Shown here: piece by piece, positions 4,133 to 62,255 of the stretch
Layout: each line of letters starts with the position of its first letter
Numbering within the stretch: the stretch's first letter is position 1
Sequence record: MN850631.1
Source of the DNA: Escherichia phage mio
Length of the DNA: 64,000 bases
Strand: one strand, 5' to 3'
Notes under the pieces: generated by a model
Databases searched by the model: none
The model's input: only the letters and a program-made list of their open reading frames with translations
What the model was told of the DNA's origin: nothing
Position numbers and translations under genes: made by a program

Positions 4133-4696
4133 TTAACCTAAAAGGTCTTTTAAATTGCGTTCTGTGATGTTTGCCGTGATTTTATCCAGCAGGTCACAAA
4201 ACACGGAACTATCACCGCTATTCTGTACAATTTTCGCCATACTTAACAAATCATCGTCAACATAGCCTAAATTGCGGTTAGTTGCATCTGGTACAAAGAA
4301 AGGCGCATACATCGCACTAAATTTCGTTGAGTGGATACTAACAATCCAATTTTTATCAAAGTATCCGGTAAAGCTGGCAATTTCGCTCATGTTGTCACAA
4401 GAATAATCGTCCTCAAGTTCTTCCTCTGGGATATCCATTTCGATAACAATCACTTCCTGCGTTTCCATTTGGAAAGCTGCTGTGATAAGCCCCGACTCTA
4501 AGGCGCTTTGAATGCAGCGTTCACGGATATAAGAATCTTCCTCATCTTCCAGACATTCCGTTTTGATAACCTTGTTCATTGGGTAAACGTAGAAACAATC
4601 GTCCATGTAGGAACAGTTCCAGATACCTTCAGGTTTATCGCCACCATTCAGCAGGTTTACAAAGTTTTTGAGTGTAGTTCCGTGATAGCATTTCAT
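4133..4696 (-). CDS. hypothetical early protein (187 aa), acidic
   Basis: ATG 4694-4696 with AGGAGA RBS in conserved element. Confidence 0.6.
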   Translation of the reverse strand: MKCYHGTTLKNFVNLLNGGDKPEGIWNCSYMDDCFYVYPMNKVIKTECLEDEEDSYIRERCIQSALESGLITAAFQMETQEVIVIEMDIPEEELEDDYSCDNMSEIASFTGYFDKNWIVSIHSTKFSAMYAPFFVPDATNRNLGYVDDDLLSMAKIVQNSGDSSVFCDLLDKITANITERNLKDLLG

Positions 4697-51707: not shown

Positions 51708-59726
<8,019 letters not shown>

Positions 59727-59727
<1 letters not shown>

Positions 59728-59966
59728 TACATTTTTCCTGCTCTTCTAAGTTCGTTGTAAGCAATTTCCTCTTTATACGACCTCTGAATTTCAAGAAATT
59801 GTCTCAATGATAATAAATCAGAGAATGTCATAGCAAAGAGTTGGTCAAGTGTTTCTTTACACCCTTCCATACCATAAATAGCAAGCACAAATTTCATCTC
59901 GTCTGCTTCTTCATAGGTTGCCTCTACAGCAGCATCAGTTAGTGGTGTCTGTAGAGTGTTACCCAT
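59727..59966 (-). CDS. -1 frame extension ORF of tail assembly chaperone (C-terminal part of the predicted frameshift fusion)
   Basis: Frame is open from slippery site TTTTTTC (60005-60011) through to stop at 59727. Confidence 0.5.
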
Positions 59967-59968
59967 GT

Positions 59969-60367
59969 TTACTGAGAAGTTAGGCTTTTGAAAATGCTTG
60001 CTTCGAAAAAACTTCCGAAGTTTGCCTCCAGCGCAAATGCTAAGTAATCAATAAATTCACCGTAGTTTGCTTGGAAGTACGTATCAATATTAAGTGGGAA
60101 GTCGTCAACAGTTGCCCCTTGAAATAACAGGGTTGCCATCTCTTCAAGGTTAATTTCTTCAATTCTGTCAAAACAAGCTTCAACAAGTTCTTTAAATGGA
60201 ACCGTCGGAGCTTCCTTCTTACTCTTGTCAGTCAGACTTGATAGCATCTGTGCAAAGGTTGGAACAACAATTTTACCCAACTTCATAGACATCTTAATAC
60301 CGTCTCTTGCCCCAAGCAGAACGATATTTACTTTCTTACCATTAATTACTCTAAATTCTGTTTTCAT
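59969..60367 (-). CDS. tail assembly chaperone (132 aa)
   Basis: Directly upstream of tape measure gene; contains slippery heptamer near its 3' end. Confidence 0.55.
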   Translation of the reverse strand: MKTEFRVINGKKVNIVLLGARDGIKMSMKLGKIVVPTFAQMLSSLTDKSKKEAPTVPFKELVEACFDRIEEINLEEMATLLFQGATVDDFPLNIDTYFQANYGEFIDYLAFALEANFGSFFEASIFKSLTSQ

Positions 60368-60392
60368 TGTGATTCCTTAATACTTTTAAAAG

Positions 60393-60428
60393 AAACAAAA
60401 AAGGGGAAGACCTTTTAAAGTCTCCCCC
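60393..60428 (-). terminator. putative intrinsic terminator downstream of tail tube gene
   Basis: GTCTCCCC/GGGGAAGAC hairpin (one bulge) followed by a long T-run on the minus strand. Confidence 0.45.
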
Positions 60429-60440
60429 TTATAGGATTTA

Positions 60441-60887
60441 TTAAACACTTGACGCTGGAATTGTAGAAGTGTAGTCTAACTTCTCACAACCAAAAATCCA
60501 AGTTTTAGAGTTCTGGTCACGACCAAGTTCAATCTGTGGTAACTCCTGCAACCAAGCGTTAATACCAGTTGCCAGAACAGAGCCTGATGGGTCGTAGATT
60601 ACGAAGTTAGAAGAGATATCTTCTTCAAGTTCCATATTGTCTTGTTTAGCTTGAATTGCAGAAAGCATCTGGTTAGAGAGAGAAGTCTGCATTAACTCAA
60701 TCTCAATAGTACCTGTCTTGTCTGCATTTCTTGTCAGAGCAACCTGACCACCTGCACCAACAACTGGTGTCACAAGTGGTGATGTTCTCTGTAGACGCAA
60801 GAATGAGTCTGGGGCAAAGCCTTCAATGGCAATACCATTCCAGCTACATACAACGTCTTTAGGGGAATATTGCTGATACATAGCCAT
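60441..60887 (-). CDS. putative tail tube protein (148 aa)
   Basis: Size and position between sheath and chaperones; followed by terminator. Confidence 0.5.
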   Translation of the reverse strand: MAMYQQYSPKDVVCSWNGIAIEGFAPDSFLRLQRTSPLVTPVVGAGGQVALTRNADKTGTIEIELMQTSLSNQMLSAIQAKQDNMELEEDISSNFVIYDPSGSVLATGINAWLQELPQIELGRDQNSKTWIFGCEKLDYTSTIPASSV

Positions 60888-60902: not shown

Positions 60903-62255
60903 TTATTCGTAAGCCACTGTACCTTTCAAGTCAACATCCAAGATAGCCCCTGCTAAGATACCTGCGAAGGTAACATCTTTCAGGATACGTGCTTTCTTGT
61001 CTGCTAAAGCAACTTGAGAGGCTTTAGGAACATTAACTGTGTAAGATGACAGGAAGTTTCTGTTGACTGCTCTTTGCAGAGAGGTTTCAATGACTTGACG
61101 AATACGGGTAATACCAGTATCATCATAAGTAATCTTACCACCCTTCTGGTTAATTAGCAAGTCTCTCAGAGAAGTTTTCAGGTCTGATTCTAACCAGTCA
61201 ACACCACGGACGATATCAATCCATTCCCCACCAGAAGTAATCCCTCTACGAACCACTGGAACACCACCATCAAGGTCAATAAAGTTACAGTGACGTACAT
61301 CTAAAGCAGACTTCTGAATACTTGTCAGAGGTCTCTGATTAGATGGTTGCAGAGAAGCTGCTACACCAGTTAGCTGAGCATTACCCCAAGCAATTGAACC
61401 TGCATCATATGGAGCACCATAAGCAATGTATGCCATCTCTGGATAATCTGCTGCTGCTGCGTGATGCCACAAGCAAACTGTACGAGTGTACATATTCTTA
61501 GCAAGCTGTGCTGGAACATCATTCGCACTGGCTAATTCTGTACCTTGCAGGGCTGTTACATCGGAGTTAGCCGTAAAGAAGATTTTCTTGCGAGCCTGAA
61601 TCTCAGAAGCCATTGCTAAGACAAACTGTTGAGTTCTATCTTCTGCTGCAATGAAATACCAGTCGGTAGAATAAGCTTCGATAGCTGCCAGAGCAGTTGC
61701 TGCTGTATCGGCAGTTGTACTTGCAATATATACAGTCTGTGCTGTGGTTGTTACTTTCACAAAGTCATTATCACCAGCTTTGGTAATAATCATTGTTGCA
61801 GAGCCATTGCTACCAGTTACGTTCACAGAAACCTTATCTTTGATTGTTGGGTCAGCTTCAATCTGTGTTTTAAACTGTTGCAACACGTTTTCAGCAGTGT
61901 CTTCAGCTTGCGCTGTATACTGATATGGTTGAGAAATTCCACCGCCAGCAGCTACAGTAATTGAGTAGTCTGTACTTTCAGCAACGGCATTAGGAATTGA
62001 TACAGTGTACTGCATAGCACGTCTACCAATATAAAGCTGAGTTACTTTAGGAGTCTGACTCCAAAGTTGTTTAGCAGCCTTATATGCAGCAGTATTCTCA
62101 TCGAAATCTTCAGCAACTTCAGTTAAGGAAGTGTAACCACGTACTCTTTCTTCAAAATTATCTGTTGAAGCTAAGAATAGTGGCAAACCAAAACCTTCTC
62201 TTGTAGTTCCTGCGGTGTTCAATGTAATATCTACATTAACAATTGGATTCCACAT
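60903..62255 (-). CDS. putative tail sheath protein (450 aa)
   Basis: Size and position immediately upstream of tube gene. Confidence 0.55.
   Translation of the reverse strand: MWNPIVNVDITLNTAGTTREGFGLPLFLASTDNFEERVRGYTSLTEVAEDFDENTAAYKAAKQLWSQTPKVTQLYIGRRAMQYTVSIPNAVAESTDYSITVAAGGGISQPYQYTAQAEDTAENVLQQFKTQIEADPTIKDKVSVNVTGSNGSATMIITKAGDNDFVKVTTTAQTVYIASTTADTAATALAAIEAYSTDWYFIAAEDRTQQFVLAMASEIQARKKIFFTANSDVTALQGTELASANDVPAQLAKNMYTRTVCLWHHAAAADYPEMAYIAYGAPYDAGSIAWGNAQLTGVAASLQPSNQRPLTSIQKSALDVRHCNFIDLDGGVPVVRRGITSGGEWIDIVRGVDWLESDLKTSLRDLLINQKGGKITYDDTGITRIRQVIETSLQRAVNRNFLSSYTVNVPKASQVALADKKARILKDVTFAGILAGAILDVDLKGTVAYE

What the first reader, a model, noticed from the sequence alone, without database searches (positions are those of the whole stretch)
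59727..60367. Programmed -1 ribosomal frameshift in the tail assembly chaperone upstream of the tape measure gene
Near the 3' end of chaperone ORF 59969..60367 the transcribed strand has the slippery heptamer T-TTT-TTC (plus-strand GAAAAAA at 60005-60011) in the correct zero-frame phase. The -1 frame is open from that site through ORF 59727..59966, ending one base into the tape measure start codon. This is the conserved G/GT-type chaperone frameshift of tailed phages.
Basis: partly seen in the sequence, partly recalled or inferred. Interest (0 to 1): 0.5.

Follow-up and report, generated by a model that had tools for sequence, protein, structure and literature searches.

The report
Felix O1-type tail chaperone frameshift
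This is the usual -1 ribosomal frameshift site that lets a tailed phage make a short and a long tail-assembly chaperone from one gene; it is real and strongly conserved, but it is already annotated in close relatives of this Felix O1-like phage.

Summary
The window is a Felix O1-like myovirus (Felixounavirus; 99.1% identical to Escherichia phage warpig). On the minus strand a 132-aa chaperone ORF (59969-60367, Pfam Phage_TAC_15) carries T_TTT_TTC at 60011-60005 in X_XXY_YYZ phase. From there the -1 frame runs 92 codons to a TAA (59729-59727) that overlaps the tape-measure ATG.

This is more than chance. Of 63 in-phase heptamers in the window's 68 long ORFs, only this one has a -1 extension over 38 codons. 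The heptamer is in phase at the same GSFF/GCFF position in 14 sequence groups, down to 27% protein identity. Synonymous variation collapses around it. The downstream ORF's own ATG is not conserved: it is absent, moved or mutated in relatives. A Buttiauxella homologue with a different gene layout encodes the same GSFF without a slippery run.

I found no conserved downstream RNA structure. An SD-like GGAGG lies 13 nt upstream but is only partly conserved.

The frameshift is already annotated as a joined CDS in phages Mushroom, Meda and Moogle, and mentioned in the Moogle genome paper. I found no experimental proof for this lineage.

Verdict: correct, ordinary, already known. Its use is in annotation.

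The parts
59969..60367 (-). Tail assembly chaperone, zero-frame product (G-like), 132 aa
   Evidence: ORF and translation. Pfam PF21822 Phage_TAC_15 at E=1.5e-19, 71 bits against a cut-off of 22. phrog_1613 'tail assembly chaperone' at 4.5e-47. AlphaFold model has mean pLDDT 77.7: a beta-hairpin followed by a helical bundle.
60005..60011 (-). Slippery heptamer T_TTT_TTC (S119-F120-F121: AGT TTT TTC) in X_XXY_YYZ phase
   Evidence: Sequence. It is the only in-phase heptamer in the shift window. It is invariant and in phase in all 34 loci first tested, in Arno18, P778, Felix O1, CR3 and Av-05, and in three metagenomic lineages. U_UU.U_UU.C falls in the efficient H_HH.U_UU.Y class in E. coli (PMC4066793).
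59727..60005 (-). -1 frame extension (T-like part): 92 codons plus TAA. C60005 is read twice.
   Evidence: Translation. Residues 14-92 match phrog_4963 'tail assembly chaperone' at 2.8e-55. The extension is 92-95 codons in Ounavirinae relatives and 123-124 in Vequintavirinae, and always ends at or just before the tape-measure start.
59727..60367 (-). Whole coding path of the predicted fusion chaperone (121 + 92 = 213 aa)
   Evidence: The same 641-nt span is annotated as a two-piece joined CDS in Mushroom (CPT_Mushroom69) and in Meda ('Tape measure chaperone frameshift product'). Moogle carries the equivalent joined CDS.
59964..59966 (-). ATG of the separately listed 79-aa ORF. It is internal Met134 of the fusion and is probably not a conserved initiation site.
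   Evidence: No purine-rich SD in the 18 nt upstream (CCTAACTTCTCAGTAAAC). It is ATA in L014. The first in-frame ATG lies 4-5 codons further on in L026, L028 and Moogle-like phages. P778 has only a TTG. L032 and phiEa21-4-like phages have no in-frame start before codon 38-58. No ORF is called or annotated in this interval in L073, L075 or phiEa21-4.
59982..60022 (-). Island of nucleotide conservation around the slip site (…CTTCGGAAG-TTTTTTC-GAAGCAAGCATTTTCAAAAGCC)
   Evidence: This is the only blastn-detectable similarity between the 641-nt region and the Erwinia phiEa21-4 group: 41 nt at 92.7%, while the proteins are about 40% identical. A 51-nt query is at least 99% identical in 201 of 298 phage records, whereas no record reaches 99% over the 641 nt. 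Synonymous codon identity is 0.88-0.92 at codons 117-128 against about 0.5 elsewhere.
60025..60029 (-). SD-like GGAGG, 13 nt 5' of the heptamer. Possible upstream stimulator (inferred).
   Evidence: Anti-SD duplex of -9.3 kcal/mol. The motif is present at 11-12 nt in Felixounavirus-, SUSP- and Moogle-like phages, Arno18 and Av-05. It is absent in phiEa21-4-like phages, L032, P778 and CR3. The spacing lies within the 6-17 nt range searched for SD stimulators in PMC4066793.
59990..59993 (-). Second, weaker in-phase -1 shift motif: tetramer U_UUC at codons I125-F126
   Evidence: U_UU.Y ranks second among tetramers in E. coli, but the maximum for tetramers was about 10-fold below the best heptamer (PMC4066793). 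Whether it is used is not known.
57499..59727 (-). Tape measure protein, 742 aa. Its ATG overlaps the fusion's TAA (TAATG).
   Evidence: phrog_4036 at E=0 and Pfam TMP_3 at 3.6e-17.
60441..60887 (-). Tail tube protein, 148 aa (context)
   Evidence: phrog_280 at 1.2e-47 and Pfam PF11681. The homologue is labelled Phage_Tube_PhiTE.
60903..62255 (-). Tail sheath, 450 aa (context)
   Evidence: phrog_205 'tail sheath' at 1e-122.
60392..60430 (-). Intrinsic-terminator-like hairpin (13-bp stem plus T-run) between the tube and chaperone genes (context)
   Evidence: A terminator is annotated at the same place in phage Meda and listed among the features under the match for KhF1 and XTG1.

Best explanation
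Ribosomes translating the tail assembly chaperone gene (60367 to 59969, minus strand) mostly terminate at TAA 59971-59969 and make a 132-aa chaperone. A minority slip back one nucleotide when the two tRNA-Phe occupy UUU-UUC of U_UUU_UUC (60011-60005). They re-pair to UUU-UUU, continue with CGA (Arg), and read 92 more codons to the TAA that overlaps the tape-measure ATG. The result is a 213-aa fusion: residues 1-121 of the chaperone plus a 92-aa C-terminal domain.

By analogy with lambda gpG/gpGT and P2 gpE/gpE+E', both forms would coat the tape measure protein, and the extension would recruit tail tube subunits. Neither form would end up in the virion. The slip appears to rely mainly on the heptamer itself. 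An SD-like GGAGG 13 nt upstream may help. No downstream structure is evident.

What is shown: the sequence anatomy, the homology and the comparative conservation. What is inferred: that slippage actually occurs, how efficient it is, and what the two proteins do.
For: Anatomy.

Family and synteny: the first ORF is PF21822 Phage_TAC_15 and phrog_1613; the second is phrog_4963; the sheath, tube and tape measure genes flank them.

Uniqueness in the window: only 1 of 63 in-phase heptamers has a long -1 extension (92 codons against a median of 4 and a next-best of 38), and only 1 of 20 Phe-Phe dipeptides is T_TTT_TTC.

Conservation: the heptamer is in phase at the homologous position in all 34 loci, in Arno18, P778, Felix O1, CR3 and Av-05 (27-42% identity), and in L073, L075 and L076 (48-51%). 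From the window's codon usage, Ser-Phe-Phe would be written T_TTT_TTC only about 13% of the time (my arithmetic from the counts).

Synonymous-site conservation peaks at the site. The local 51 nt are at least 99% identical in 201 of 298 records.

The -1 extension lacks a conserved start codon, or any start codon. The -1 peptide directly after the slip (R-x-x-x-[FP]-x-[KR]-P) is conserved even where the nucleotides differ.

Natural negative control: the Buttiauxella noackiae chromosomal homologue (47% identity) keeps GSFF but writes it GGC TCA TTC TTC. It has a TGA in the -1 frame just after, and is followed by a separate 201-aa gene with its own ATG.

Motif competence: U_UU.U_UU.C is an efficient class in E. 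coli, is under-represented in E. coli genes, and is used by IS elements (PMC4066793).

Independent annotation of the same frameshift: and PMC4319497.
Against: I found no experimental detection of the fusion for any Felix O1-like phage in the searched literature.

No significant or conserved downstream RNA structure: z-scores run from -2.4 to +1.6, mostly near 0. No Rfam match.

The SD-like element is missing in 5 of the 12 representative sequences folded.

In the window and most Felixounavirus genomes an ATG lies 2 nt after the zero-frame stop, so some independent translation of a 79-aa product by re-initiation cannot be excluded.

The strong nucleotide conservation 3' of the heptamer can be explained by dual coding alone, so it is not independent evidence for an RNA signal.

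Confidence: 0.86

Rival explanations
1. There is no recoding. The 79-aa ORF (59966-59727) is translated on its own from its ATG, by termination-reinitiation after the chaperone's TAA two nucleotides upstream. The heptamer is incidental.
For: The ATG at 59966-59964 lies 2 nt after the TAA. It is present in nearly all Felixounavirus genomes sampled. Many GenBank and RefSeq records, including Felix O1 itself, annotate two separate genes.
Against: There is no SD before that ATG. It is ATA in L014, displaced in the L026, L028 and Moogle groups, a lone TTG in P778, and absent in L032 and phiEa21-4-like phages, where the conserved N-terminal part of the domain precedes any start codon. Gene callers and annotators find no ORF in this interval in L073, L075 or phiEa21-4. 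This rival does not explain the invariance of AGT TTT TTC across 14 groups, nor its absence in the Buttiauxella homologue whose next gene has its own start.
Confidence: 0.06
2. The same 213-aa fusion is made by transcriptional slippage. RNA polymerase adds one extra U in the U6 run, possibly helped by the small nascent hairpin CUGGAG-GCAAA-CUUCGG just upstream, and the edited mRNA is then translated normally.
For: A terminator-like hairpin followed by a T-run was flagged at 60031-60015. It has a predicted energy of -7.2 kcal/mol. Hairpin-assisted slippage on short runs is known from Roseiflexus IS630 (PMC5009743). The protein product would be identical to the ribosomal one.
Against: Efficient slippage by bacterial RNA polymerase is reported for runs of 9 A or T. 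T5C5 needs a strong GC hairpin immediately adjacent, and it yields a deletion, not an insertion. Here the run is only 6 T. The hairpin is weak (6 pairs, 2 of them G-U), lies 3 nt away, is not conserved in phiEa21-4-like phages, L032 or CR3, and falls within the chance expectation of the scan (2 found, 1.1 expected). What is conserved is the phase of the heptamer, which matters for ribosomes and not for polymerase.
Confidence: 0.04
3. The shift happens, wholly or partly, at the downstream in-phase tetramer U_UUC (59993-59990; I125-F126) by single-tRNA slippage, giving a fusion with a junction five codons later (…FFEASIF-QKPNF…).
For: The motif is in phase and leads into the same -1 frame. ATT TTC is conserved in 8 of 10 Ounavirinae representatives. 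U_UU.Y is the second-best tetramer in E. coli.
Against: The maximum frameshifting on tetramers was about 10-fold lower than on the best heptamer. The tetramer is lost in Arno18 (ATC CTG) and in L075 (GCT ATC CTG), which keep the heptamer. Arg immediately after the heptamer is conserved in the -1 frame in all compared groups except Av-05. In CR3 it is kept even though the zero-frame residue changes from E to G.
Confidence: 0.04

Closest known systems
Phage lambda gpG / gpGT tail assembly chaperones (-1 frameshift at G_GGA_AAG)
   Same: Two overlapping ORFs sit between the major tail/tube gene and the tape measure gene. [quoted passage not shown] The fusion carries an extra C-terminal domain. 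The arrangement is widely conserved among long-tailed phages (PMC5009743). From my own knowledge, no strong stimulatory RNA structure is known for lambda, which matches what I see here.
   Different: The slippery heptamer differs: U_UUU_UUC with tRNA-Phe, instead of G_GGA_AAG with tRNA-Gly and tRNA-Lys. This is a contractile-tail phage. The Pfam family differs: I detected no sequence similarity to lambda G, and the match is to PF21822 Phage_TAC_15. The ratio of products is unknown here (30:1 in lambda).
Phage P2 gpE / gpE+E' (myovirus tail chaperone frameshift)
   Same: A contractile-tail phage with a chaperone pair upstream of the tape measure gene and a -1 shift on a T-rich heptamer (T_TTT_TTG in P2, from my own memory of Christie et al. 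2002; I did not check it here). The review notes 2- to 3-fold higher efficiency in P2-like phages than in lambda.
   Different: The last base of the heptamer differs (C against G). No detectable sequence homology was tested or found. The gene neighbourhood is Felix O1-type (sheath, tube, chaperone, tape measure), not the P2 FETUD operon.
Annotated frameshifted tape measure chaperones of Felix O1-like phages (Salmonella phages Mushroom and Meda; Citrobacter phage Moogle)
   Same: This is the same gene. Mushroom and Meda are 98.3-98.6% identical over 1.5 kb, and both carry a joined CDS over the identical 641-nt span. [quoted passage not shown]
   Different: Nothing material. Those annotations are predictions too. 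Other records of the same genus (Felix O1 RefSeq, warpig) list two separate ORFs.
Escherichia coli dnaX -1 frameshift (upstream SD-like stimulator)
   Same: An SD-like GGAGG lies at a comparable distance (13 nt) 5' of the heptamer. That spacing is within the 6-17 nt range searched for SD stimulators in PMC4066793.
   Different: From my own knowledge, dnaX also has a strong downstream hairpin and shifts at about 50%. Here there is no downstream structure, the SD-like motif is not conserved across the family, and its effect is untested.

Membership tests
G/GT-type phage tail assembly chaperone pair with programmed -1 frameshift | Located between the major tail/tube gene and the tape measure gene, on the same strand | tested here: met
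   Order on the minus strand: sheath 62255-60903, tube 60887-60441, chaperone 60367-59969, -1 ORF 59966-59727, tape measure 59727-57499.
G/GT-type phage tail assembly chaperone pair with programmed -1 frameshift | The second reading frame is -1 relative to the first, overlaps its 3' end, and is open from the slip site to its stop | tested here: met
   92 open codons after the heptamer, against 18 stops in the same frame upstream.
G/GT-type phage tail assembly chaperone pair with programmed -1 frameshift | A slippery X_XXY_YYZ heptamer in zero-frame phase within the overlap, conserved among relatives | tested here: met
   T_TTT_TTC is invariant and in phase in 14 sequence groups, down to 27% identity. 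Synonymous variation is suppressed. The motif is competent in E. coli.
G/GT-type phage tail assembly chaperone pair with programmed -1 frameshift | The downstream domain has no conserved independent translation start | tested here: met
   In the window itself an ATG without an SD exists, so independent initiation is not excluded for this genome.
G/GT-type phage tail assembly chaperone pair with programmed -1 frameshift | Both a short and a long protein are made in a fixed ratio, both are needed for tail assembly, and both are absent from virions | not testable with these tools
   This needs an expression assay and genetics. I found no published data for Felix O1-like phages.
Pfam PF21822 Phage_TAC_15 (tail assembly chaperone family) | Score above the curated gathering threshold over most of the model | tested here: met
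   71.2 bits against a cut-off of 22, E=1.5e-19, model positions 1-124 of 127. All 92 database homologues carry PF21822.
Conserved tail-assembly-chaperone fold (solved chaperone structures such as B. subtilis YqbN) | Structural similarity of the G-like domain to a solved chaperone | tested here: inconclusive
   [not shown]
dnaX-type stimulated -1 frameshift signal | Conserved upstream SD-like element and/or downstream stem-loop | tested here: not met
   No significant or conserved downstream structure. The SD-like GGAGG is present in the window but absent in 5 of the 12 representative sequences folded.

The most novel reading that the evidence does not exclude
The frameshift in this family may be tuned by unconventional, non-structural cis elements. 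One candidate is the near-invariant block AAG-UUUUUUC-GAAGCAAGCAUUUUCAAAA, which is shared by genera whose chaperones are only about 40% identical. Another is the facultative SD-like GGAGG 13 nt upstream. The block could act as a linear stimulator (for example through mRNA-rRNA or nascent-peptide effects) rather than being conserved only because two reading frames overlap there.
Probability: 0.1. Interest if true: 0.35.

Novelty: already known. Interest (0 to 1): 0.13.

Why it matters
The main value is for annotation. Many Felixounavirus records, including the Felix O1 reference and this window's nearest relative warpig, list two separate small genes. The phiEa21-4 record leaves a 236-nt unannotated gap where a single recoded gene with two products is the better description. 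Felix O1-like phages are widely used for Salmonella and E. coli biocontrol and typing, so correct structural-gene models have some practical use. Biologically, it adds a well-sampled U_UUU_UUC example, with a natural negative control, to the catalogue of G/GT-type frameshifts. It does not change current understanding.

Tried and rejected
- Downstream stimulatory RNA structure. I folded +7..+60, +7..+90 and +10..+50 for 10 diverse relatives against dinucleotide shuffles. Nothing was significant or shared. An 8-bp hairpin at 59956-59922 exists in the window but starts 48 nt after the heptamer, too far for a canonical stimulator.
- Rfam scan of 59600-60500 at E up to 1. It returned only two sub-threshold chance hits over the terminator region.
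- Upstream SD-like stimulator as a family feature. Rejected as universal, because it is absent in 5 of 12 representative sequences. I keep it as a possibility for this genome.
- Upstream hairpin plus U-run as a transcriptional slippage signal. It is weak, not conserved, and within the chance expectation.
- Solved-structure relatives by sequence, using the fusion and a profile of 18 homologues. None found.
- The protein database search with the fusion returned only 124-136-aa products and no fused entries, so it did not show where other annotators place the junction.
- Xu, Hendrix and Duda 2004, the defining paper for this class, is not held in the library. I could not check whether Felix O1 was in their table.
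- Literature searches for experimental evidence in Felix O1-like phages found only genome announcements.

Full report
**What the window is.** The 1.5 kb around the finding is 99.1% identical to Escherichia phage warpig and 98-99% identical to more than 200 Felixounavirus genomes, including relatives of Felix O1, Mushroom and Bas63. On the minus strand the genes run in this order:
- tail sheath, 62255-60903, phrog_205;
- tail tube, 60887-60441, phrog_280 and PF11681;
- a terminator-like hairpin;
- a 132-aa ORF, 60367-59969;
- a 79-aa ORF, 59966-59727;
- the tape measure protein, 59727-57499, phrog_4036 and Pfam TMP_3.

The 132-aa ORF is a tail assembly chaperone by curated criteria: PF21822 Phage_TAC_15 at 71 bits against a cut-off of 22, and phrog_1613 at 4.5e-47. 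The 79-aa ORF matches phrog_4963, also labelled tail assembly chaperone, over its full length.

**Checking the observation.** Every coordinate in the finding is right.
- The zero frame ends ...GCA AAC TTC GGA AGT TTT TTC GAA GCA AGC ATT TTC AAA AGC CTA ACT TCT CAG TAA. T_TTT_TTC therefore occupies 60011-60005 in X_XXY_YYZ phase.
- Re-reading C60005 gives CGA AGC AAG..., and 92 sense codons follow (RSKHFQKPNFSVNMGNTLQ...RRAGKM). They end at TAA 59729-59727, whose last A is the A of the tape-measure ATG.
- The same -1 frame has 18 stop codons in the first 320 nt of the chaperone gene, the last at 60050-60048, and then none for 107 codons. The permissible shift window is 79 nt long and contains only this heptamer.

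**Is it more than chance?** The heptamer alone is not. The window's 68 ORFs of at least 100 aa contain 63 in-phase X_XXY_YYZ motifs, about 0.47 per gene of this length. The combination is unique, though. The -1 extension behind those motifs has a median of 4 codons, the runner-up reaches 38, and only this one reaches 92. Among the 20 Phe-Phe dipeptides in these ORFs, this is the only one written T_TTT_TTC.

**Comparative evidence.** This is the strongest argument.
- The heptamer is present, in phase and at the homologous GSFF/GCFF position, in all 34 loci first collected.
- It is also present in Pectobacterium phage Arno18 (42% identity), Yersinia phage P778, and the Vequintavirinae phages CR3 and Av-05 (27-29% identity).
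- It is present in three further metagenomic lineages at 48-51% identity.
- In every case the -1 frame then stays open for 92-95 codons (123-124 in the Vequintavirinae) and stops at, or a few nucleotides before, the tape-measure start.
- From the window's own codon usage, Ser-Phe-Phe would be spelled T_TTT_TTC about 13% of the time (my arithmetic from the counts). Invariance across 14 groups whose other synonymous sites are about half randomised is therefore not neutral.
- A codon-level alignment of ten Ounavirinae representatives shows synonymous codon identity of 0.88-0.92 at codons 117-128, against roughly 0.35-0.7 elsewhere. AGT TTT TTC is identical in all ten.
- At the DNA level, the only blastn-detectable similarity between this 641-nt region and the Erwinia phiEa21-4 group is a 41-nt island centred on the slip site.
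- A 51-nt probe is at least 99% identical in 201 of 298 phage records, although no record reaches 99% over the whole 641 nt.

**The downstream ORF does not look like an independent gene.**
- Its ATG (59966-59964) has no Shine-Dalgarno sequence.
- The ATG is ATA in one otherwise near-identical genome (L014).
- The first in-frame ATG lies 4-5 codons further on in the L026, L028 and Moogle groups. P778 has only a TTG.
- There is no in-frame start before codon 38-58 of the extension in L032 and in phiEa21-4-like phages. There, the conserved motif (C-P-x-T-x-A-A-V) lies upstream of any possible start.
- Gene callers find no ORF between chaperone and tape measure in L073 and L075. The phiEa21-4 RefSeq record leaves 236 nt unannotated.
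- The -1 peptide right after the slip, R-x-x-x-[F/P]-x-[K/R]-P, persists even where the nucleotides have changed. This places the entry into the -1 frame at the heptamer rather than further downstream.

**A natural negative control.** A chromosomal homologue in Buttiauxella noackiae (47% identity, same Pfam family) keeps the GSFF motif but encodes it GGC TCA TTC TTC. It has a TGA in the -1 frame immediately after. It is followed by a separate 201-aa gene with its own ATG. So the protein sequence does not force the slippery run. The run appears where the gene layout needs a frameshift. This is a single example.

**Mechanism.** U_UU.U_UU.C belongs to the H_HH.U_UU.Y class, which was found among the most efficient -1 motifs in E. 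coli. It is under-represented in E. coli genes and is used by IS elements (PMC4066793). Both the P-site and the A-site tRNA-Phe can re-pair perfectly or by wobble.

I found no downstream stimulatory structure. Folding energies of the 3' flanks of ten relatives are indistinguishable from shuffles, and no shared helix exists. There is no Rfam match.

An SD-like GGAGG (60029-60025) lies 13 nt upstream, within the range where such elements are sought. It arises from the Leu-Glu-Ala codons CTG GAG GCA. It is lost wherever Glu is GAA (P778, L032 and the phiEa21-4 group) and is also absent in CR3. It may boost slippage in this genome, but it is not a family feature.

The invariant 22 nt after the heptamer coincide with the stretch where both reading frames encode conserved residues. 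In that stretch every substitution is non-synonymous in at least one frame. Arno18 and L075 have diverged there while keeping the heptamer. I therefore attribute this conservation to dual coding, not to an RNA signal.

The roles of the two proteins are inferred from lambda gpG/gpGT (PMC5009743): both would bind the tape measure, the extension would recruit tube protein, and neither would stay in the virion.

**Rivals.**
- Independent initiation of the 79-aa ORF is disfavoured by the start-codon data above. It cannot be excluded as a minor additional route in this genus.
- Transcriptional slippage would give the same protein. However, the run has only six T. The small upstream hairpin flagged is weak, not conserved, and within chance expectation. 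Known cases need nine A or T, or a strong adjacent GC hairpin.
- A second in-phase tetramer, U_UUC at 59993-59990, could contribute a little. It is lost in lineages that keep the heptamer.

**Structure.** An AlphaFold model of the 132-aa protein, built from an 18-sequence alignment, has pLDDT 77.7 and pTM 0.71. It shows an N-terminal beta-hairpin and a helical bundle.
- Foldseek found nothing significant in the PDB.
- The fold test of membership is therefore inconclusive. The Pfam test is met.

**Comparison with what is known, and novelty.** This is a G/GT-type chaperone frameshift, closest in spirit to P2 gpE/gpE+E' (a contractile tail and a T-rich heptamer). It has already been annotated for this very gene:
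- joined CDS features over the same 641-nt span in Salmonella phages Mushroom and Meda, the latter labelled 'Tape measure chaperone frameshift product';
- an equivalent joined CDS in Citrobacter phage Moogle;

I found no experimental confirmation for Felix O1-like phages. The feature is ordinary and already known. The practical outcome is that records listing two separate genes (Felix O1 RefSeq, warpig) would be better annotated with a recoded fusion.

Noticed in passing
window 60392-60430 (minus strand): A strong intrinsic-terminator-like hairpin (13-bp stem AAGGGGGAGAC…GTCTTCCCCTT followed by a T-run) sits between the tail tube gene and the chaperone gene. It may lower transcription of the chaperone and tape-measure genes relative to sheath and tube. 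Phage Meda annotates a terminator at the same place.
   Followed up: partly
[not shown]
   Followed up: partly
L072 2501-3486 (Buttiauxella noackiae JPRU01000001.1): A chromosomal homologue of the chaperone (47% identity) lacks the slippery heptamer. It is followed by a 201-aa gene that starts at an overlapping TAATG, has a weak PF21822 hit of its own, and precedes a TMP_3 tape measure gene. This is a different two-gene layout of the same module. An in-phase A_AAA tetramer lies 3 codons before its stop (my reading of the sequence printed).
   Followed up: partly
window 59922-59956 (minus strand): An 8-bp hairpin CUCUACAG…CUGUAGAG lies inside the -1 extension, starting 48 nt after the heptamer. 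A stem is predicted at the equivalent position in the SUSP- and Moogle-like sequences folded (CAGACCCC…GGGGCUG). It is too far downstream for a canonical frameshift stimulator, and its purpose, if any, is unknown.
   Followed up: no
window 4133-4696 (minus strand): The second-longest -1 extension in the window. An in-phase T_TTA_AAA heptamer lies 7 codons before the stop of a 187-aa ORF of unknown function (phrog_3303), with 38 open codons in the -1 frame. I did not examine it in relatives.
   Followed up: no
GenBank/RefSeq records of relatives: Annotation of this gene pair is inconsistent across about 300 records. Some have a joined CDS, some have two separate 'chaperone' genes, and many say 'hypothetical protein'. 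phiEa21-4 has an unannotated 236-nt gap. A few records label the chaperone 'Hc1 head closure protein' (VpaE1_ev78, VpaE1_ev108) or 'head closure protein' (C600M2).
   Followed up: partly
window, all ORFs of at least 100 aa: None of the 20 Phe-Phe dipeptides is encoded TTT TTT, and only the frameshift site has T_TTT_TTC. This is consistent with avoidance of long in-phase T runs outside the programmed site.
   Followed up: no
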